Below are positions 1,359 to 17,500 of a DNA stretch of 29,267 nucleotides, piece after piece. Both the position numbers and the translations under genes were made by a program. The stretch comes from a virus. Taxonomy: Duplodnaviria; Heunggongvirae; Uroviricota; Caudoviricetes. The notes beneath the pieces are model-generated. The model was not told the origin of the DNA. It did no database searches and was given only the letters and a program-made list of their open reading frames with translations. How positions within the stretch are numbered: position 1 is the stretch's first letter; the number at the start of each line of letters is the position of its first letter. The stretch lies in IMG/VR virus record IMGVR_UViG_3300037400_003880, one strand, 5' to 3'.

Positions 1359-1550
1359 ATGGAGTTTGAATGTGCTTTTTGTAAGAAGAAGTTCATTTAT
1401 GATGAACCAGTTGACATAAACTATGAGCTTAAGTATAAATATCACGTTTGTCCAGACTGTTATTTAACTCTAATAATGGTTGTTAAAGAAGGTCAGTGTG
1501 ACAGTGCTATCTGTCGCCGGGCTTCAAAAATCTTTTTTCAGGATAAGTGA
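1359..1550 (+). CDS. small Cys-rich protein (CAFC...CPDC)
   Basis: AAGGAG RBS; first gene after promoter. Confidence 0.65.
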   Translation: MEFECAFCKKKFIYDEPVDINYELKYKYHVCPDCYLTLIMVVKEGQCDSAICRRASKIFFQDK

Positions 1551-1561
1551 GGAGTGATTTA

Positions 1562-2689
1562 ATGTTAGAAATTCAGAAGTTCATTCATGCTCATGACAAC
1601 TGGCGGGAGCTTTTGGCTGACGCGCCTTATAACTTGAAGATTTCTGAAGACGACGGTTATGTTCTCTTCAAGTATAATCAGATCAACTCTGACTTCACCG
1701 AGAAGATTTGTCGAGAGGCTCGTGGTCTTATCCTCGATTCCACTAACAACTTCAGCGTTGTAAGACTTGCCTTCGAGAAGTTTTTCAACCTTGATGAACA
1801 GTATGCAGTTCATATCGACTGGGATACTGCGGTCGCAACCGAGAAGATTGATGGCTCCATTATGTCTGTTTGGTATGCCCGCGGCAAGTGGCATTTAAGT
1901 ACAAATGGGACAATTGACGCATTCAAGGCAGAGCTCGGCGGCATCGGCCCGTACAAGACTTTCGGGGAACTCTTTGAGTCTGTATTGCCGCTGTCTACTT
2001 TCGAGAACTACAACAAGCATCGTTGCTGGACTTTTGAACTGGTATCTCCTTATAACAAGGTAGTTATCAACTATCCTGAGACTAAGGTATATCTCCTCTC
2101 TATTCGTGATATGTATTCTCTTGAAGAGCTCGACCTTGAAGCAGTAGAAATGATTGCAGATACTAACGGGATTACTGTACCTAAGCGTTATGACCTTAAC
2201 AACGAAGCTGACTACCGTCAGTTGGTTGAGCAGATGCCCGAAGGTCACGAAGGTATTGTTGTTAGAGATGCAATGGGACGGCGTGTGAAGATTAAGACTC
2301 TCCTTTACTTTCAAATGCATAAGGCTAAGAACAACGGAGTAATCACTTTGGAACGTATCGTTGATTTAATCAGAGCAAATGACCACTATGAGTTCCTCTC
2401 TTACTTCCCTGAGTATCAGTCTATTTTTGATAACATTGCTGAACAAATGACTGTTGCAAACCATCGAGTAACTGCAATCAAGGGGGTAGTAGAAAGATGG
2501 AAGATGGAGCATCAGTTTGTAGGTGACGTGCGTGCGCAGCGCAAGTATTTTGCTCAATATGTAAGGAAGGAAAACTTCGCGCCATTATTATTTGCAGAAT
2601 ATGATGGGAGACTTGACACTTTGCTTCAAAATATTACTACTCCTAAGTATATTTCGTTGTTTCATATTGTTTTACCGGAGGTTAGATAA
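1562..2689 (+). CDS. rnlA: T4 Rnl1-like ATP-dependent RNA ligase
   Basis: Nucleotidyltransferase motifs: ATEKIDGS (I), TFELVSPYN (III), EGIVV (IV), RVKIKT (V); LFKY, CREARGLILD and KFFN near the N-terminus. Confidence 0.9.
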   Translation: MLEIQKFIHAHDNWRELLADAPYNLKISEDDGYVLFKYNQINSDFTEKICREARGLILDSTNNFSVVRLAFEKFFNLDEQYAVHIDWDTAVATEKIDGSIMSVWYARGKWHLSTNGTIDAFKAELGGIGPYKTFGELFESVLPLSTFENYNKHRCWTFELVSPYNKVVINYPETKVYLLSIRDMYSLEELDLEAVEMIADTNGITVPKRYDLNNEADYRQLVEQMPEGHEGIVVRDAMGRRVKIKTLLYFQMHKAKNNGVITLERIVDLIRANDHYEFLSYFPEYQSIFDNIAEQMTVANHRVTAIKGVVERWKMEHQFVGDVRAQRKYFAQYVRKENFAPLLFAEYDGRLDTLLQNITTPKYISLFHIVLPEVR

Positions 2690-5652: not shown

Positions 5653-7074
5653 ATGAACAAAGTAAAGAAGTATTTTCCTGAAGCCGCTCTGAATAAGAAC
5701 AAGAACTCCGCAGCTCTTCTTACTTTTCTTGAGCTGCCGGCAGAAGTAAAAAGCTGGATTCTGATGAAGTTCACCGATGAAAAAGGAAGAGTAAATGCCT
5801 ATGGAATTTCTGAATATGTAAAGAGCTATCGTTTGCGTGCAGACGAGTGGAATATTCGCTTGCTTGAGGCTCGCCACTCAAAGAAGGGGACTATTACGCT
5901 TCTTACTAAAGTAAAGATTGAATTTGATTATGCAAATGACCTTATTTGTTTCTCTTTGCCGGAGTATGGATTCCCGAAAAAGCAAAAGGAGGCGCAAGTA
6001 GATTGGAGCGTTGTTTCTGAACAGAAGAAATATCTGTTGACTCCTGATGCAGCTTGGGGAGAAATCACCCTGATGTATGATTGCGGAGTAATTACTATGG
6101 TAAACTTTACTCCTCTTTGTCCTTATACTTTTGATTTGGGCAAGTATAGAGAGGGGCGCAAGAATTTCTCTACTCAAGAGTGGATTGACCTTTTATTGGG
6201 GGCATTGAATTTTAATCCAGAGGGGTTCGAGACTGTAGATCAGAAGCTGACAATCTTGCAGCGGTTCCTTCCTTTCGTGGAAAAGCGTCTTAACACCATT
6301 GAACTTGCAACAAAGGGCACTGGTAAATCCTACTGCTACTCCCAGCTCTCCCCGAAGACTTGGTGTGTGAGCGGCGGCACAGTGACTCGTGCAACAGCTT
6401 TCTACGATATGACTCGTAAGAAAGTAGGCTACTTCGGTCAGTATTCTCAGGTTATTTTTGATGAAGTTCAGACTATTAAGTTCCCGAATCCTGAAGAGAT
6501 TGGAGGTGCACTTAAGTCTTATCTGGAAAGCGGTGAAATTCGTTGTGGCTCTTTCGAGGGAATGTCAGACTCTGGACTTACCCTCGTTGGTAATATCCCA
6601 GTTGGTTCAATGGATACTAAGTCTTCCAATATGTTTAAGACTCTGCCGAAGATTTTCCATGAGTCCGCGCTTATTGATCGCTTTCATGGAATTATCGAAG
6701 GGTGGAAGATTCCTCGTATGAATGAAGATTTGAAGATGGAAGGATGGACACTTTCTACAGATTATGTGGTAAATATGTTTGACCAGCTTCGTGACGAGTT
6801 CTATTATCGAGCAATCGTTGATGAACTTATTGTGACCGAGGGGAAAGCTGATACTCGTAATCTTGAAGCGGTGAAAAGACTGGCAACAGGTTTCCTGAAG
6901 CTGCTCTTTCCTCACGTCACATCTTGTAAGGATATTGATGTTGCAGACTTCCGAGATTATTGTCTTGAGCCGGCGATGAAGATGCGCGGGGCTGTGCTCT
7001 CTCAGCTTCAGCAGCTTGATACAGAGTACGCAGATAAGACTATGCCGACAGTCCACATTTTGGAGGAGGAATAA
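5653..7074 (+). CDS. brxL: BrxL-like AAA+ ATPase lacking the C-terminal Lon protease domain
   Basis: EWIDLLL, LPFVE..NTIELATKGTGKSY (Walker A), VIFDEV (Walker B), LVGNI, SALIDRFHGIIEGWKIP, RNLEAVKRLATGFLKLLFP. Confidence 0.8.
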   Translation: MNKVKKYFPEAALNKNKNSAALLTFLELPAEVKSWILMKFTDEKGRVNAYGISEYVKSYRLRADEWNIRLLEARHSKKGTITLLTKVKIEFDYANDLICFSLPEYGFPKKQKEAQVDWSVVSEQKKYLLTPDAAWGEITLMYDCGVITMVNFTPLCPYTFDLGKYREGRKNFSTQEWIDLLLGALNFNPEGFETVDQKLTILQRFLPFVEKRLNTIELATKGTGKSYCYSQLSPKTWCVSGGTVTRATAFYDMTRKKVGYFGQYSQVIFDEVQTIKFPNPEEIGGALKSYLESGEIRCGSFEGMSDSGLTLVGNIPVGSMDTKSSNMFKTLPKIFHESALIDRFHGIIEGWKIPRMNEDLKMEGWTLSTDYVVNMFDQLRDEFYYRAIVDELIVTEGKADTRNLEAVKRLATGFLKLLFPHVTSCKDIDVADFRDYCLEPAMKMRGAVLSQLQQLDTEYADKTMPTVHILEEE

Positions 7075-8382: not shown

Positions 8383-8732
8383 GGGGGCGTAATGGTTTCG
8401 ACCGGCGTTTGACCTCTTTATTAGCGAGTAGCTGGCACAGCTTAAAGTGCAACTTAAACATAAACGTAGATTATTCTATAGCTGCCTGAGCTTAAAACAG
8501 TATTGCGCATAGGGAAAACTGTAGCTGACGTAGAAGTACCCGTACTACGCATAATATTCGTCAGAAAGGAAATGAGAAGTGACGCAGCTCATGGGTATCG
8601 TAAGCCGTCTACAGCAACGCCATTTGTTTGTTAGTTGTCATGGTCTTGCCGAAGTTTTACAATTAACTACACTCGTAGAAGGTAAAGAACGAAGATGTCG
8701 GGACAGCAGTTCAATTCTGCTCGCCTCCACCA
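8383..8732 (+). ncRNA. ssrA: tmRNA
   Basis: 5' GGGGGCGTAATGGTTTCGAC; 3' T-arm GCAG-TTCAATT-CTGC and CGCCTCCACCA; G3:U70 pair; tag frame ...GTA GAT TAT TCT ATA GCT GCC TGA (VDYSIAA). Confidence 0.93.
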
Positions 8733-12299: not shown

Positions 12300-12788
12300 A
12301 TGACTGCTATTACTATGAAAAACTTCATGACCGCACTGACCACTGGCGAGCTGGTAATCAATGTCAAGGCTGAAACTGGTGAGGTTACTCAGGTTTCCAA
12401 GTCCATCTTTGACGAGAACGGTGCTCTGATTCCTGAGGTCGTAGAGTACGCTCAGGCTCAGATTACCAAGATTGAGGACAAGAACACCAAGCGCAAGGAC
12501 GGCTCCAAGCCCACCGCAAAGCAGCTTGAGAACGAGGGCATTAAGTCCACTATTCTCTCTCTGATGGAGGTTGGCACCACTTACACCGCAAAGGACATTA
12601 TCGGTTTCGAGATTGATGGCGTTACTACTACTCAGAAGGTGTCTGCACTCATGAAGCAGCTTGTAACTGCCGGCAAGGTTACTGCAACCGATGTAAAGCC
12701 GGAGGGTTCTAAGTCTAAGGTTAAGGGTTACGCCCTGATTGACACAGCTGAGGCTGAGTCCGAGACCGAAGACGAAGTATCCGAGTAA
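12300..12788 (+). CDS. coiled-coil + winged-HTH-like protein, paralog family A
   Basis: AAGGAGAG RBS; TTQKVSALMKQLVTAGKV...SKVKGY; acidic tail; similar to 26209 and 27474. Confidence 0.8.
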   Translation: MTAITMKNFMTALTTGELVINVKAETGEVTQVSKSIFDENGALIPEVVEYAQAQITKIEDKNTKRKDGSKPTAKQLENEGIKSTILSLMEVGTTYTAKDIIGFEIDGVTTTQKVSALMKQLVTAGKVTATDVKPEGSKSKVKGYALIDTAEAESETEDEVSE

Positions 12789-13208: not shown

Positions 13209-13237
13209 TTGACTTTTCTTAAAATCTATGATATAAT
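13209..13237 (+). promoter_or_regulatory. sigmaA-type promoter of the second tRNA cluster
   Basis: TTGACT-N17-TATAAT. Confidence 0.85.
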
Positions 13238-13273
13238 ATATATAGAGATTGAGAGAAAAGAAGAATTAAAAAT

Positions 13274-13347
13274 AGCGGGATAGAGCAGTCAGGAAGCTCG
13301 TCAGGTTCATTACCTGAAGGTCGTCGGTTCAAATCCGGCTCCCGCAA
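13274..13347 (+). tRNA. trnfM: tRNA-fMet-like (CAT)
   Basis: initiator-like body (GAGCAG..AGCTCG, GGTCGTCGGTTCAAATCCGGC); 1:72 mismatch; anticodon stem TCAGG/CCTGA rather than three G:C pairs. Confidence 0.8.
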
Positions 13348-13468
13348 TACAAACTGGTTCCGCTAAGCTCCTTTGTGATTGTGGCGTAGATTAAAGCGTG
13401 TGTAGTTAAGGGGACACCGCCAGTTAAAGATTGGGAGTTAGCTCAGCTCGGCAGAGCGCGCGGCTGTT

Positions 13469-13939
13469 TACCTGACCTCAAACTTTGATTCTAATGAAAG
13501 AATTAAATTCAAAGCAAAAGGGAAATGTAACAGAAGTTGAACTTATCCTTGAATTTCTAAAACTTGGTTATAATGTTCTTACTCCATATGGAGATTGTGA
13601 ACGCTATGATTTCGTAGTAGATAAAGATGGGAAGTTCATTAAAGTACAAAGTAAAACAGCAGCATCTGATGACAATGGAGCATCTTTTAGAATTTCAACG
13701 ACAAGTTGTAATCGGAAAGATGGCAGAATTGTTCATCACACTTATTCCGAAGATGATATTGATTATTTTGCTACGGTTTTTGATGGAAAATCTTATCTTA
13801 TTCCTGTACAGCTTTGTCAGGGGCATAATAAGAAATTCCGAATTTTACCTGCACAGAATGGTCAAACTCGCGGAATAACTTGGGCAAAAGACTTCGTATT
13901 ACAAGAGGTGATAAAAGAAGTTTGAGCTGATGTGTAAGC
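13469..13939 (+). mobile_element. 471-nt tRNA intron/insertion encoding a homing endonuclease
   Basis: inserted between tRNA positions 36 and 37; terminal stem CTCAAACTT/AAGTTTGAG. Confidence 0.82.
13494..13925 (+). CDS. PD-(D/E)XK homing endonuclease (I-Ssp6803I/PDDEXK_5-like)
   Basis: KGNVTE, GYNVLTPYGDCERYDFVV, KVQSKT, YSEDDIDYF; no SD sequence. Confidence 0.85.
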   Translation: MKELNSKQKGNVTEVELILEFLKLGYNVLTPYGDCERYDFVVDKDGKFIKVQSKTAASDDNGASFRISTTSCNRKDGRIVHHTYSEDDIDYFATVFDGKSYLIPVQLCQGHNKKFRILPAQNGQTRGITWAKDFVLQEVIKEV

Positions 13940-14050
13940 AACCGCAAGGTCGAGGGTTCGAGTCCCTCACTCCCAGCCAATGGGACATTAAGTGCGTGAT
14001 AACTCTGGCGGTTGGTTATCTTGTAGCGTCCCTAAAGCCGCCAATTAAAT

Positions 14051-14126
14051 GGGGTTGTAGCTCAGTTGGGAGAGCGCCTGCCTTGCAAGCAGGAGGTCGC
14101 GAGTTCGATTCTCGTCTTCTCCACCA
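14051..14126 (+). tRNA. trnA-TGC: tRNA-Ala(TGC)
   Basis: G3:U70; loop CT-TGC-AA; two U:U mismatches in the acceptor stem. Confidence 0.88.
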
Positions 14127-16482: not shown

Positions 16483-16698
16483 ATGGAAACTATGGATTTT
16501 TACTCGAAGGCAAAGGAACTGATGAATGAGCTGGTTGCAGAGGACGGCGAATGGGAGCGAATTGATTCGTCCGAAGACTATGACGCAATCAATTCTTTGT
16601 TCACGCAAGGTGAACTGACCGTGCTGCTCATCAAGCTGATGGAAGAGAAGTATGGCAAAAAGTGTCGCCCTTGGGGCTGTGAAGAGGAGTGTGAGTAA
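16483..16698 (+). CDS. hypothetical protein
   Basis: AAGGAGG RBS. Confidence 0.7.
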   Translation: METMDFYSKAKELMNELVAEDGEWERIDSSEDYDAINSLFTQGELTVLLIKLMEEKYGKKCRPWGCEEECE

Positions 16699-16699
16699 T

Positions 16700-17500
16700 A
16701 TGACGGATAAGCATATGGACGCAGTTATGGACTGCGTAAGATTTCTTGAGGGTGAGGGTTACACGGTAATCTACGTTGCTCTCTACGGTTCTCAGAACTA
16801 CGGTATGGATACTCCGCATTCTGACCATGACTTCAAGGCGGTTGTAGCTCCTAAGCTCTACGACATCGCGCTGGGTAAGCAGCCCGTCTCCAAGTGCGTA
16901 GAGTTCGGTGACGGTCTTGTGGACATTAAGGATGTCCGCTGTATGGTTGACAACTGGAAGAAGCAGAATGTAAACTTCCTTGAGCTTCTGTTCACGAAGT
17001 GGTTCTACCTGAACCCTGAGTTCGAGGACTTCATGTGGTTCCGTGAGAACGCAAATGCAATTGCCCATGCTGACGAAGGTCGGGCAATCAATGCAATGCT
17101 CGGTATGATGAAGGAAAAGCAGCACGCTCTGTGCAAGGACTACCCCGCCCAGCTCAAGGACATTGAAGCTCACGGCTACTCTGCAAAGCAGCTCTGTCAT
17201 ATCATCCGCCTTAACAACCTTATGAAGGACTACTTCCTTGAGGACTTTGGTACGATCCTTTGTCCGATGGAGGCGCGGCGTGTTTACATGATGAAGGTAA
17301 AGACATACGAGCAGCTTTTTACCCCTGAGCAAGCTCAGGCTGTAGCAGATGCTCTTGTTCGGACGAATGAGGAAGTAAGAGAATCCTATAAGGATAAGGT
17401 AGCTCCGATCCAGACGTCCATCATGGCAAAGATGGACGAGCACAAGGTTGAAGCAGTAAAGCATGCGCTTCAGCTCGAACTCATGAAGGAGGATATGTAA
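16700..17500 (+). CDS. pol-beta superfamily nucleotidyltransferase (RlaP/NrdC.11-like)
   Basis: LYGSQNYG...SDHDFKAVV signature; KQNVNFLELLF; KQLCHIIRL. Confidence 0.85.
   Translation: MTDKHMDAVMDCVRFLEGEGYTVIYVALYGSQNYGMDTPHSDHDFKAVVAPKLYDIALGKQPVSKCVEFGDGLVDIKDVRCMVDNWKKQNVNFLELLFTKWFYLNPEFEDFMWFRENANAIAHADEGRAINAMLGMMKEKQHALCKDYPAQLKDIEAHGYSAKQLCHIIRLNNLMKDYFLEDFGTILCPMEARRVYMMKVKTYEQLFTPEQAQAVADALVRTNEEVRESYKDKVAPIQTSIMAKMDEHKVEAVKHALQLELMKEDM

What the first reader, a model, noticed from the sequence alone, without database searches (positions are those of the whole stretch)
13432..13979. tRNA-Asn split by an endonuclease-filled intron with no ribozyme core: candidate new class of mobile tRNA intron
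Seen: exons 13432-13468 and 13940-13979 rejoin into an intact 77-nt tRNA-Asn(GTT). The 471-nt insert lies between positions 36 and 37. A PD-(D/E)XK ORF (13494-13925) fills all but 25 nt at the 5' end and 14 nt at the 3' end. The insert ends in C, not the omega-G that group I introns need. Established: I-Ssp6803I-type endonucleases are known from group I introns in bacterial tRNA genes, whose catalytic core needs about 200 nt outside the ORF; group II cores are larger still. Inference: this is a minimal intron removed by protein enzymes (nuclease plus ligase), and the same genome carries an Rnl1 ligase. Both exons retain full pairing and identity elements, which argues against simple gene knockout.
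Basis: partly seen in the sequence, partly recalled or inferred. Interest (0 to 1): 0.93.

Follow-up and report, generated by a model that had tools for sequence, protein, structure and literature searches.

The report
Ribozyme-less endonuclease intron splitting phage tRNA-Asn
A phage tRNA-Asn gene is split right after its anticodon by a mobile insert that is almost all homing-endonuclease gene, has no self-splicing RNA, and has ends that pair with the anticodon in a conserved rod, so either phages remove a tRNA intron with proteins (unknown in bacteria) or a selfish gene breaks tRNAs and uses them as a scaffold.

Summary
Exons 13432-13468 and 13940-13979 join into a 77-nt tRNA-Asn(GUU). The 471-nt insert lies between positions 36 and 37. 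Its ORF (13494-13925) is an I-Ssp6803I-type PD-(D/E)XK homing endonuclease.

No group I, group II or small-ribozyme model matches. Neither covariation nor synonymous-site constraint points to an RNA core hidden in the ORF.

About 45 related loci in large phages show the same design in eight tRNA types. Splicing in silico gives a tRNA in 43 of 45. The insert ends pair with each other and with U33-U36 to form a continuous rod. The two junctions are two-fold symmetric in it, with a 3-nt 3' stagger.

The element is mobile: sister phages of Enterococcus phage EFP01 carry the exact insert-less gene, and inserts are more alike than the exons they split. The window encodes an Rnl1 ligase. Other carriers have RtcB or Rnl2-like hits instead.

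No RNA data show splicing. My best reading is a protein-dependent intron (about 0.5). The main rival is an unspliced selfish cassette that uses the tRNA as a scaffold (about 0.35).

This scan has met the same class before on other DNA. I found no description of it in the searchable literature.

The parts
13209..13237 (+). Sigma-70-like promoter (TTGACT, 17 nt, TATAAT, with TG) ahead of tRNA-Met, the split tRNA-Asn, tRNA-Ala and tRNA-Gly
   Evidence: 11 of 12 consensus matches. No terminator-like site between it and 14400. A consensus match only.
13432..13468 (+). Exon 1 of tRNA-Asn: positions 1-36, ending with anticodon GUU (13466-13468)
   Evidence: ARAGORN on joined exons; covarying acceptor, D and anticodon stems.
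13469..13939 (+). 471-nt intervening sequence: the rod termini plus the endonuclease gene
13465..13471 (+). Rod helix A, 5' strand: U33, G34, U35, U36, then insert bases +1 to +3. The 5' junction (13468|13469) lies inside this helix.
   Evidence: It pairs with 13934-13940. RNAalifold pairs 37:516 to 44:510. In-register pairing is 94-100% over 33 non-redundant junctions. It is also the MFE of the mini-precursor.
13472..13476 (+). 5' side of the internal loop, CUGAC (box D-like CUGA)
   Evidence: C+4 pairs with G-8 and covaries (CG 11, UG 6, AU 1).
13477..13485 (+). Rod helix B, 5' strand (CUCAAACUU)
   Evidence: Complementary to 13918-13926. It covaries in relatives.
13494..13925 (+). I-Ssp6803I-type PD-(D/E)XK homing endonuclease, 143 aa (P0001)
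   Evidence: dN/dS about 0.14 in the Asn clade.
13918..13926 (+). Rod helix B, 3' strand (AAGUUUGAG). It overlaps the last codons and the stop codon.
13927..13933 (+). 3' side of the internal loop, CUGAUGU (box C-like)
   Evidence: Conserved in a different reading frame relative to the stop codon in EFP01.
13934..13940 (+). Rod helix A, 3' strand: GUAAGC plus A37. The last three insert bases (AGC) pair with the anticodon. The 3' junction is 13939|13940.
13940..13979 (+). Exon 2 of tRNA-Asn: positions 37-76, with G73 and an encoded CCA
1547..2689 (+). Rnl1-family RNA ligase: candidate sealing enzyme, 11 kb upstream
   Evidence: Pfam PF09511 5.7e-15; phrog_562 1.7e-44. A link to the insert is inferred only.

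Best explanation
This is a mobile intervening sequence of a widespread, ribozyme-free class. It consists of a homing-endonuclease gene bracketed by about 40 nt of conserved RNA.

Shown: it sits exactly between nucleotides 36 and 37 of a phage tRNA-Asn gene. It has no detectable ribozyme. Its ends pair with each other and with U33-U36, so the precursor should fold as a normal cloverleaf whose anticodon stem continues into a long rod with the ORF in the end loop. It moves between tRNA genes.

Inferred: the precursor is transcribed with the neighbouring tRNAs. A two-fold-symmetric protein endonuclease cuts both strands of the rod, one nucleotide 3' of the central pair U35:G-2 on each strand, which gives a 3-nt 3' stagger. 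That releases the insert and leaves a tRNA nicked between U36 and A37. An RNA ligase then seals the nick: Rnl1 in this phage, RtcB or Rnl2-type enzymes in others.

Which nuclease cuts, and what chemistry the ends have, is unknown.
For: No ribozyme:
- Rfam gives nothing at E<=10 on 13350-14050.
- RNAalifold on 18 whole precursors finds only the cloverleaf and the rod. The two small helices inside the ORF have no compensatory change.
- Relative synonymous entropy in 10-column windows stays between 0.28 and 0.74 along the ORF.
- The 3' ends AGC, AAC, AAA, AUC, AUA, ACA, AUG and GAU exclude an omega-G. One 5' exon ends in C.

Rod:
- Pairs 33:37, 34:-1, 35:-2, 36:-3, +1:-4 and +2:-5 are kept in 94-100% of 33 non-redundant junctions across 8 anticodons. 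The median duplex z-score is -4.4.
- Helix B covaries.
- Mini-precursors of 8 types fold, as MFE, into a cloverleaf plus rod.
- The termini stay nearly invariant although ORFs have dS about 1.2.

Exons:
- 43 of 45 joined exon pairs are called as tRNAs with the expected anticodon.
- Acceptor and T stems show many compensatory changes.
- In the complete 190-kb genome G005, both tRNA-Lys(UUU) genes are split and no intact one exists.
- EFP01 has no other tRNA-Asn.

ORF always present:
- All 13 genuine hits to the 3' terminus carry an intact ORF of 139-143 aa.
- No ORF-less rod was found in IMG/VR or the JGI metagenomes.

Ligase:
- Rnl1 is in the window.
- RtcB is in EFP01 and G002; PF09414 hits are in G003-G005.

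Symmetric enzyme candidate:
- Four copies of the endonuclease are predicted to assemble: score 0.88, best of 3 controls 0.00.
- That mark was reached by 20 of 30 proteins solved as pairs of one chain and by 1 of 23 solved as single chains.
- The runs agree in at least 84% of contacts, and the partner pLDDT is at least 85.
- The I-Ssp6803I tetramer is already solved, so this pass may come from likeness.
Against: - No spliced RNA has been seen.
- No bacterial or phage enzyme is known to cut a continuous RNA helix with a 3-nt stagger.
- Carriers do not share one ligase family. RtcB needs 3'-phosphate/5'-OH ends, while Rnl1 and Rnl2 need 3'-OH/5'-phosphate, and no Pnkp was found in the window.
- Large tRNA-rich phages often carry RNA-repair ligases for other reasons.
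- Inserts are more alike than the exons they split (L022 vs L023: insert 98.5%, flanks 99-100%, exons 83% and 66%), so exon integrity may reflect recent homing.
- L040 keeps, and even tightens, the rod (U35 to C, now Watson-Crick with G-2) while losing the Asn anticodon and one anticodon-stem pair. L027 has an 8-nt duplication in the D arm.
- G002 carries a second, intact tRNA-Asn.
Confidence: 0.5

Rival explanations
1. It is not an intron in function. A selfish homing-endonuclease gene inserts at its own cleavage site and inactivates the tRNA. The intact cloverleaf and the rod serve the cassette: the tRNA body gives RNase P/RNase Z processing and nuclease resistance, like an engineered tRNA scaffold. 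The rod joins the mRNA to it and may control translation. Intact exons reflect constant re-invasion of fresh targets.
For: - Inserts are much more alike than their exons, with identical flanks, so turnover is high.
- Insert-less alleles coexist in sister phages.
- L040 keeps and strengthens the rod while its tRNA identity decays, and L027 is broken.
- G002 has a spare intact tRNA-Asn.
- No splicing enzyme is known.
- Family members also live free-standing beside intact tRNA genes: SM5, My1 and HSTV-4.
- Phage tRNAs are often dispensable (general knowledge).
Against: - 43 of 45 exon pairs are still tRNA-like, with anticodon, U33 and A37 kept.
- Both Lys(UUU) genes of G005 would be dead.
- No degenerate ORF was seen, whereas the usual homing cycle predicts decay after fixation.
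- A scaffold does not obviously need pairing to reach through the anticodon in eight tRNA types, although a continuous helix could explain that.
Confidence: 0.35
2. It is a cryptic self-splicing or self-cleaving RNA: either a group I core overlapping the ORF, or a new small ribozyme formed by the conserved termini (the CUGA/UGAUG loop), with a ligase or a reverse reaction joining the exons.
For: - The termini are strongly conserved non-coding RNA at dS about 1.2.
- CUGAUG and GUAA/GAAA recall hammerhead core words (by eye).
- The 5' exon ends in U in most types.
- The family's founding member lives in a group I intron.
- A mild dip in synonymous variation at codons 15-36.
Against: - No Rfam ribozyme family matches at E<=10.
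- There is no covarying structure in the ORF.
- Only two stacked helices exist, with no three-way junction.
- The CUGA/UGAUG loop is missing from the Ile, Thr, Met, Asp and second Lys types, which keep the same architecture.
- There is no omega-G, and one type has C at the 5' junction.
Confidence: 0.07

Closest known systems
Group I intron of the Synechocystis PCC 6803 tRNA-fMet gene encoding I-Ssp6803I
   Same: Same endonuclease family (PF11645; 2OST is the best sequence and fold match). It also lies in the anticodon loop of a tRNA gene. That the insertion site is also just after the anticodon is from memory (Bonocora and Shub 2001). Both are mobile.
   Different: That intron is 655 nt with a 150-aa ORF, which leaves about 200 nt of ribozyme. 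Here only 39 nt lie outside the ORF. There is no core and no omega-G; a terminal rod takes their place.
Archaeal bulge-helix-bulge (BHB) tRNA introns cut by EndA and joined by RtcB
   Same: Protein-dependent in concept. The anticodon pairs with the intron. The two cuts have the same polarity (3' stagger across a short helix) and two-fold symmetry. Some archaeal tRNA introns carry box C/D motifs (general knowledge).
   Different: There are no 3-nt bulges and the helix is continuous. The sites are 3 bp apart, not 4. The position is 36/37, not 37/38. The hosts are bacteria, where EndA is not known. The encoded protein resembles I-Ssp6803I and Hjc; EndA is not among the top 50 fold matches.
Free-standing homing endonuclease genes in phage tRNA clusters (T4 SegB type, and PF11645 genes next to tRNA-Asn or tRNA-Ile)
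   Same: No ribozyme. It targets tRNA genes. Homologues sit 2-20 nt after an intact tRNA-Asn in Salmonella phage SM5 and in haloarchaeal virus HSTV-4, and abut tRNA-Ile in phage My1.
   Different: Here the gene lies inside the tRNA, at the anticodon, and is framed by a conserved, covarying RNA rod.
Intervening sequences of bacterial 23S rRNA genes, removed by RNase III without religation
   Same: Protein-excised, ribozyme-free inserts whose ends pair in a long stem (general knowledge).
   Different: RNase III leaves 2-nt overhangs, which would give a 6- or 8-nt anticodon loop here. A tRNA nicked at 36|37 would also need ligation to decode.

Membership tests
Group I intron | Conserved catalytic core (P3-P9) detectable by the Rfam model | tested here: not met
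   No Intron_gpI match at E<=10 on 13350-14050 or at gathering score on the window. No covarying helices in the ORF.
Group I intron | Terminal guanosine (omega-G) at the 3' end, and a U.G pair at the 5' splice site | tested here: not met
   The window insert ends in C. Relatives end AAA, AUC, AUA, ACA, AUG, GAU. U36 pairs with A-3, not with G. The tRNA-Asp type has C36.
Group I intron | About 200 nt or more of non-coding ribozyme sequence | tested here: not met
   25 + 14 nt lie outside the ORF. Relative synonymous entropy stays at 0.28-0.74 along the ORF.
Group II intron | Domain V/VI structure, a 5' GUGYG start and a 3' AY end | tested here: not met
   No Rfam group II match. The insert starts UACCU and ends AAGC.
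Archaeal BHB intron | Two 3-nt bulges separated by a 4-bp helix, each holding a splice site | tested here: not met
   The consensus and MFE folds give a continuous helix with the sites 3 bp apart.
Archaeal BHB intron | A splicing endonuclease (EndA) available in the host or virus | not tested
   No whole genome is held for the window, and host genomes were not searched. The insert protein's fold matches are I-Ssp6803I and Hjc, not EndA.
I-Ssp6803I family homing endonuclease (PF11645) | Profile match above the curated cut-off | tested here: met
   104.8 bits against a cut-off of 26.1, covering 2-136 of 138 profile positions.
I-Ssp6803I family homing endonuclease (PF11645) | PD-(D/E)XK fold with the catalytic motif kept | tested here: met
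   TM 0.78 to 2OST. D34, E36, D39, Q52 and K54 are invariant in 30 homologues and align with the GD...VQVK region of 2OST. Which of these residues are catalytic is from memory.
I-Ssp6803I family homing endonuclease (PF11645) | Site-specific cleavage of the insert-less tRNA gene (homing) | not testable with these tools
   Indirect only: insert-plus and insert-minus alleles at one locus, and inserts more alike than their exons.
Box C/D K-turn | C-stem, 3-nt bulge, tandem sheared G.A pairs, then U.U and G-C (RUGAUGA with CUGA) | tested here: inconclusive
   CUGA faces CUGAUGU, and the C+4:G-8 pair covaries. But only 2 nt are bulged and C+8 is unpaired. The motif is absent from the non-Asn/Lys types.

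The most novel reading that the evidence does not exclude
The homing endonuclease is also the splicing endonuclease.

The pre-tRNA rod is an RNA replica of the DNA homing site. The anticodon stem stands for the left half-site. U33:A37 and the three anticodon pairs reproduce the central base pairs.

The two RNA junctions (after 36 on one strand, after the partner of 34 on the other) fall where I-Ssp6803I is reported to cut DNA: next to the anticodon triplet on each strand, leaving 3-nt 3' extensions. That report is from memory (Bonocora and Shub 2001) and I could not re-read it here.

One small tetrameric protein would then both spread the element as DNA and remove it as RNA, leaving 3'-OH/5'-P ends for an Rnl1-type ligase.
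Probability: 0.12. Interest if true: 0.95.

Novelty: new variant of a known kind. Interest (0 to 1): 0.78.

Why it matters
Bacteria and their viruses are thought to remove tRNA introns only by self-splicing, with group I introns and rarely group II. Protein-catalysed tRNA splicing is a hallmark of Archaea and Eukarya.

If this class is spliced, it is a third, enzyme-dependent route in the bacterial virosphere. It is carried by hundreds of gut and rumen phages and by one cultured Enterococcus phage. It would also give phage RNA-repair ligases a housekeeping role.

It would bear on the old idea that protein-spliced tRNA introns descend from mobile group I introns that lost their ribozyme.

If it is not spliced, it is a clear case of a selfish gene that repeatedly breaks translation genes and borrows their fold. 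That matters for annotating phage tRNA sets, because standard tRNA finders miss these genes.

EFP01 makes the question testable at the bench.

Tried and rejected
- RNA evidence. No RNA holder was listed for the 1-kb stretch. A search with kind 'rna' gave two bovine metatranscriptome runs holding a 0.05 share. Laying them, plus two DNA runs, gave no joints. The loose end at 13940 in X25 belongs to a different, unsplit tRNA-Asn. The RNA contigs over parts of the ORF are relatives (10 differences in 90) and may be DNA carry-over. None of this bears on splicing.
- Asp register. Cutting after U35 and after G-2 would give an omega-G and anticodon GUC. The insert-less allele of EFP01's relatives and the non-G ends of other types reject it.
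- His-His motif. H81-H82 as a possible RNA-cleaving dyad is not conserved in other rod-type endonucleases.
- Flanking spacers. Pairing of 13349-13431 with 13980-14050 is no better than in shuffles (z = 0).
- ORF-less rods. None in IMG/VR or the JGI metagenomes with these exact termini. Other termini and larger remnants were not covered.
- Joined-exon form of the window's own tRNA. Not found in the JGI metagenome contigs.
- Rnl1 as a shared partner. Neither the family nor the window's protein matched in five carrier genomes. The tool warns that nothing rang anywhere, so this is weak.
- First scan for related loci in viral contigs, using the single protein as query. Nothing was found.
- RNase III as the nuclease. 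Its 2-nt stagger cannot give a 7-nt loop (reasoning only).
- Single-sequence MFE of the whole 548-nt precursor. It does not show the rod. The alignment fold and the mini-precursors do.
- Literature. Six searches found no description of this class. The I-Ssp6803I papers that state the cut sites are not held.

Full report
**1. The observation**

The window is a tRNA island of a large phage from a bovine gut sample. It holds 15 intact tRNA genes and a tmRNA.

Between tRNA-Met (13273-13348) and tRNA-Ala (14051-14126) lie two tRNA halves:
- 13432-13468 ends ...C32 U33 G34 U35 U36.
- 13940-13979 starts A37 A38 and ends G73 CCA.

ARAGORN does not see the gene in place. On the joined halves it calls a 77-nt tRNA-Asn(gtt).

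The 471 nt between the halves hold one ORF, 13494-13925, with 25 nt before it and 14 nt after it. The last insert base is C.

The ORF is a clear member of the I-Ssp6803I family:
- Pfam PF11645 at 4.9e-30.
- PDB 2OST at 5.6e-10.
- An AF2 model of pLDDT 89 whose best solved match is 2OST at TM 0.78, followed by Hjc resolvases.

**2. No ribozyme**

Rfam finds no group I, group II or small self-cleaving family in 13350-14050, even at E<=10.

I aligned 18 whole precursors with ORFs 50-98% identical. RNAalifold recovered the four tRNA stems and a terminal rod, all with compensatory changes. Inside the ORF it found only two short helices, and neither had a single double-sided change.

Among 14 Asn-clade ORFs, relative synonymous-codon entropy in 10-column windows stays between 0.28 and 0.74 and never approaches zero. 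There is only a mild dip at codons 15-36.

Related inserts end in AGC, AAC, AAA, AUC, AUA, ACA, AUG or GAU, so there is no omega-G. One type follows C36.

A register that would create an omega-G gives anticodon GUC. It is excluded because the insert-less allele in sister phages of Enterococcus phage EFP01 is exactly exon 1 plus exon 2 at 36|37.

**3. The family**

The protein has 561 relatives at E<=1e-5 in metagenomes.

I fetched about 45 loci from IMG/VR genomes of 80-190 kb, from MAG contigs and from one cultured phage, EFP01. Almost all lie between positions 36 and 37 of a tRNA gene:
- Asn(GUU), the commonest
- Lys(UUU), in two lineages
- Ile(GAU)
- Ile(UAU)
- Thr(GGU)
- Met/Ile(CAU)
- Asp(GUC)

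Joining the exons gives an ARAGORN tRNA with the expected anticodon in 43 of 45 loci. The exceptions are L027, with an 8-nt duplication in the D arm, and L040.

Other family members are free-standing:
- 20 nt after an intact tRNA-Asn in Salmonella phage SM5.
- 2 nt after tRNA-Asn in haloarchaeal virus HSTV-4.
- Abutting tRNA-Ile in phage My1.

**4. The rod**

In every type, the last three insert bases are complementary to the anticodon: AGC or AAC for GUU, AAA for UUU, AUC for GAU, AUA for UAU, AUG for CAU, GAU for GUC. The partial exceptions:
- L038 and L049 are Ile genes that carry an Asn-type AGC end, which looks like transposition between tRNA types.
- The Thr type pairs two of the three bases.

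Over 33 non-redundant junctions, pairs 33:37, 34:-1, 35:-2, 36:-3, +1:-4 and +2:-5 are kept in 94-100%. The median duplex z-score against shuffles is -4.4.

The anticodon stem therefore runs on, past a single 32x38 mismatch, into a continuous helix.

In the window the parts are:
- Helix A: 13465-13471 pairs with 13934-13940.
- An internal loop, CUGAC facing CUGAUGU, which is box D/box C-like. Its C+4:G-8 pair covaries.
- Helix B: 13477-13485 pairs with 13918-13926. It encloses the whole ORF and overlaps its stop codon. It covaries strongly between loci.

Mini-precursors of eight types fold, as MFE, into a cloverleaf plus rod.

The box C/D-like loop is limited to the Asn and first Lys clades, so it cannot be the general catalytic element. 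It does not meet K-turn geometry cleanly.

The termini are almost invariant while the ORFs have dS about 1.2 and dN/dS about 0.14. In EFP01 the 3' motif lies in another frame relative to the stop codon. Selection therefore acts on the RNA or DNA sequence, not on the protein.

**5. Geometry of the junctions**

The 5' junction (36|+1) lies between pairs 36:-3 and +1:-4. The 3' junction (-1|37) lies between pairs 34:-1 and 33:37.

On each strand the break is one nucleotide 3' of the central pair 35:-2. The two sites are thus related by a two-fold axis and give a 3-nt 3' stagger.

This is what a symmetric dimeric nuclease would produce. RNase III would not, because it leaves 2 nt.

The polarity is the same as in archaeal BHB cleavage, but there are no bulges and 3 bp separate the sites rather than 4.

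From memory, Bonocora and Shub (2001) report that I-Ssp6803I cuts its DNA target next to the anticodon triplet on each strand, leaving 3-nt 3' extensions. The papers that state this are not held.

If that is right, the RNA rod reproduces the left half and the centre of the DNA homing site, and the RNA junctions coincide with the DNA cut sites. I offer the consequence, that the endonuclease itself excises the insert, only as the novel case.

Points bearing on the novel case:
- Held literature places tRNA-splicing endonucleases within the PD-(D/E)XK superfamily, and describes I-Ssp6803I as a tetramer in which two subunits contact the DNA.
- Four copies of the window protein are predicted to assemble: score 0.88, best of 3 controls 0.00. 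The mark was reached by 20 of 30 proteins solved as pairs of one chain and 1 of 23 solved as single chains. The runs agree in at least 84% of contacts, and the partner pLDDT is at least 85. Because the 2OST tetramer is solved, this may reflect likeness only.
- Against it: PD-(D/E)XK DNA enzymes are not known to cut RNA duplexes. The distal half of the rod does not mimic the right half-site. EndA is not among the fold matches.

**6. Mobility**

Sister Schiekviruses of EFP01 carry the uninterrupted tRNA-Asn at the same place.

Across loci, inserts are systematically more alike than the exons they split. The extreme case is L022 against L023:
- Flanks 99-100% identical.
- Insert 98.5% identical.
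- Exons only 83% and 66% identical, with fully compensated stem changes.

The element, or the exons around it, is exchanged faster than point mutation acts. This supports homing. It also weakens the argument that intact exons prove long-term selection for a working tRNA.

**7. Is it spliced?**

For splicing:
- Exon integrity in 43 of 45 loci.
- The complete genome G005 holds five copies of the endonuclease, four of which I could place in split tRNAs. Both its Lys(UUU) genes are split and no intact copy exists.
- EFP01's only tRNA-Asn is the split one.
- ORFs are always intact, and no ORF-less rods were found.
- Each of the five carrier genomes checked has at least one RNA-ligase hit, though those in G003 and G005 are weak: RtcB in EFP01 and G002, PF09414 hits in G003-G005. 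The window has Rnl1.

Against splicing:
- No RNA data.
- No known nuclease.
- The ligases differ in the end chemistry they need, and no Pnkp was found beside Rnl1.
- L040 keeps and tightens the rod while its tRNA identity decays.
- G002 has a spare tRNA-Asn.

The rival is a selfish gene that uses the cloverleaf and rod as a processing and stability scaffold. It explains most of the same facts.

I put protein-dependent splicing at about 0.5, the unspliced cassette at about 0.35, and a cryptic ribozyme at about 0.07.

**8. Comparison and novelty**

The closest known element is the group I intron of Synechocystis tRNA-fMet, which encodes I-Ssp6803I. It has the same protein family and the same kind of target, but 655 nt with a ribozyme.

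The present class fails every tested defining feature of group I, group II and BHB introns (see the membership table).

Six literature searches found no description of it.

Earlier agents of this scan reported the same class on other genomes and reached similar readings, also without RNA evidence.
- The symmetry and homing-site-mimicry argument.
- The ligase inventory.
- The synonymous-site and alignment-fold tests against a hidden core.
- The insert-versus-exon divergence contrast.
- The G005 tally.
- The negative search for ORF-less rods.

The cultured phage EFP01 offers a direct bench test.

Noticed in passing
window 8383-8732 (+): A full-length tmRNA gene (Rfam 108 bits, ARAGORN tag peptide) sits in the phage tRNA island.
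   Followed up: no
window 5653-7074 (+): A BrxL-like Lon protease/ATPase (PF13337 9e-101, plus BrxL_N) lies in a phage context, between the Rnl1 gene and the tmRNA.
   Followed up: no
window 16652-17500 (+): A nucleotidyltransferase with a weak RlaP match (RNA repair pathway Pol-beta family; Pfam 1.2e-4, below the curated cut-off; phrog_388 5e-16). It may belong to an RNA-repair set with Rnl1. No Pnkp was recognised in the window.
   Followed up: partly
L039 / L001 (Enterococcus phage EFP01), insert 3' end against exon 1: Only in EFP01, the last roughly 25 nt of the endonuclease ORF resemble tRNA positions 7-31 of exon 1 (20 of 24 identical; 0 of 300 shuffles reach the score). This may be a relic of a recombination that rebuilt the ORF end.
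   Followed up: partly
L022 against L023 (IMG/VR 3300045988 contigs): Flanks are 99-100% identical and inserts 98.5%, but the tRNA exons differ at about 20 positions with compensated stems. The divergence stops sharply at the tRNA ends. I have no worked-out mechanism for this exon swapping.
   Followed up: partly
L040 and L027: Two decayed hosts. L040 has U35 to C (anticodon GCU, now Watson-Crick with G-2 of the rod) plus a broken anticodon-stem pair. L027 has an 8-nt duplication in the D arm. Both ORFs are intact.
   Followed up: partly
G005 (IMG/VR 3300045988_112927) 121.4-131.9 kb: Five PF11645 copies lie within 10 kb of one tRNA island. Four split tRNAs (CAU, GUC, UUU, UUU). For the copy at 126835-127215 I could not find tRNA halves. 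The genome also has a suppressor-type tRNA(tta).
   Followed up: partly
L008/L009 and G004: Some carriers seem to read TAG as a sense codon. The endonuclease of L008/L009 translates only with TAG=Q, and G004 carries a tRNA with anticodon CTA. The window itself shows no clear gain in ORF length with TAG=Q.
   Followed up: partly
L012/L013 and L040, exon 2: An unusual T-loop (AUCGUAA instead of UUCGAAU) is shared by split tRNA-Asn genes of different phages. G002, which holds L012, also has a canonical intact tRNA-Asn.
   Followed up: no
L003 (Salmonella phage SM5), L112 (haloarchaeal virus HSTV-4), L002 (phage My1): Free-standing PF11645 genes lie directly beside intact tRNA-Asn or tRNA-Ile genes, in both bacterial and archaeal viruses. 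In the SM5 record the tRNA-Asn is annotated as tRNA-Met.
   Followed up: partly
window 12300-12788 (+): A 162-aa ORF between tRNA-Tyr and tRNA-Glu has no Pfam or PHROG family.
   Followed up: no
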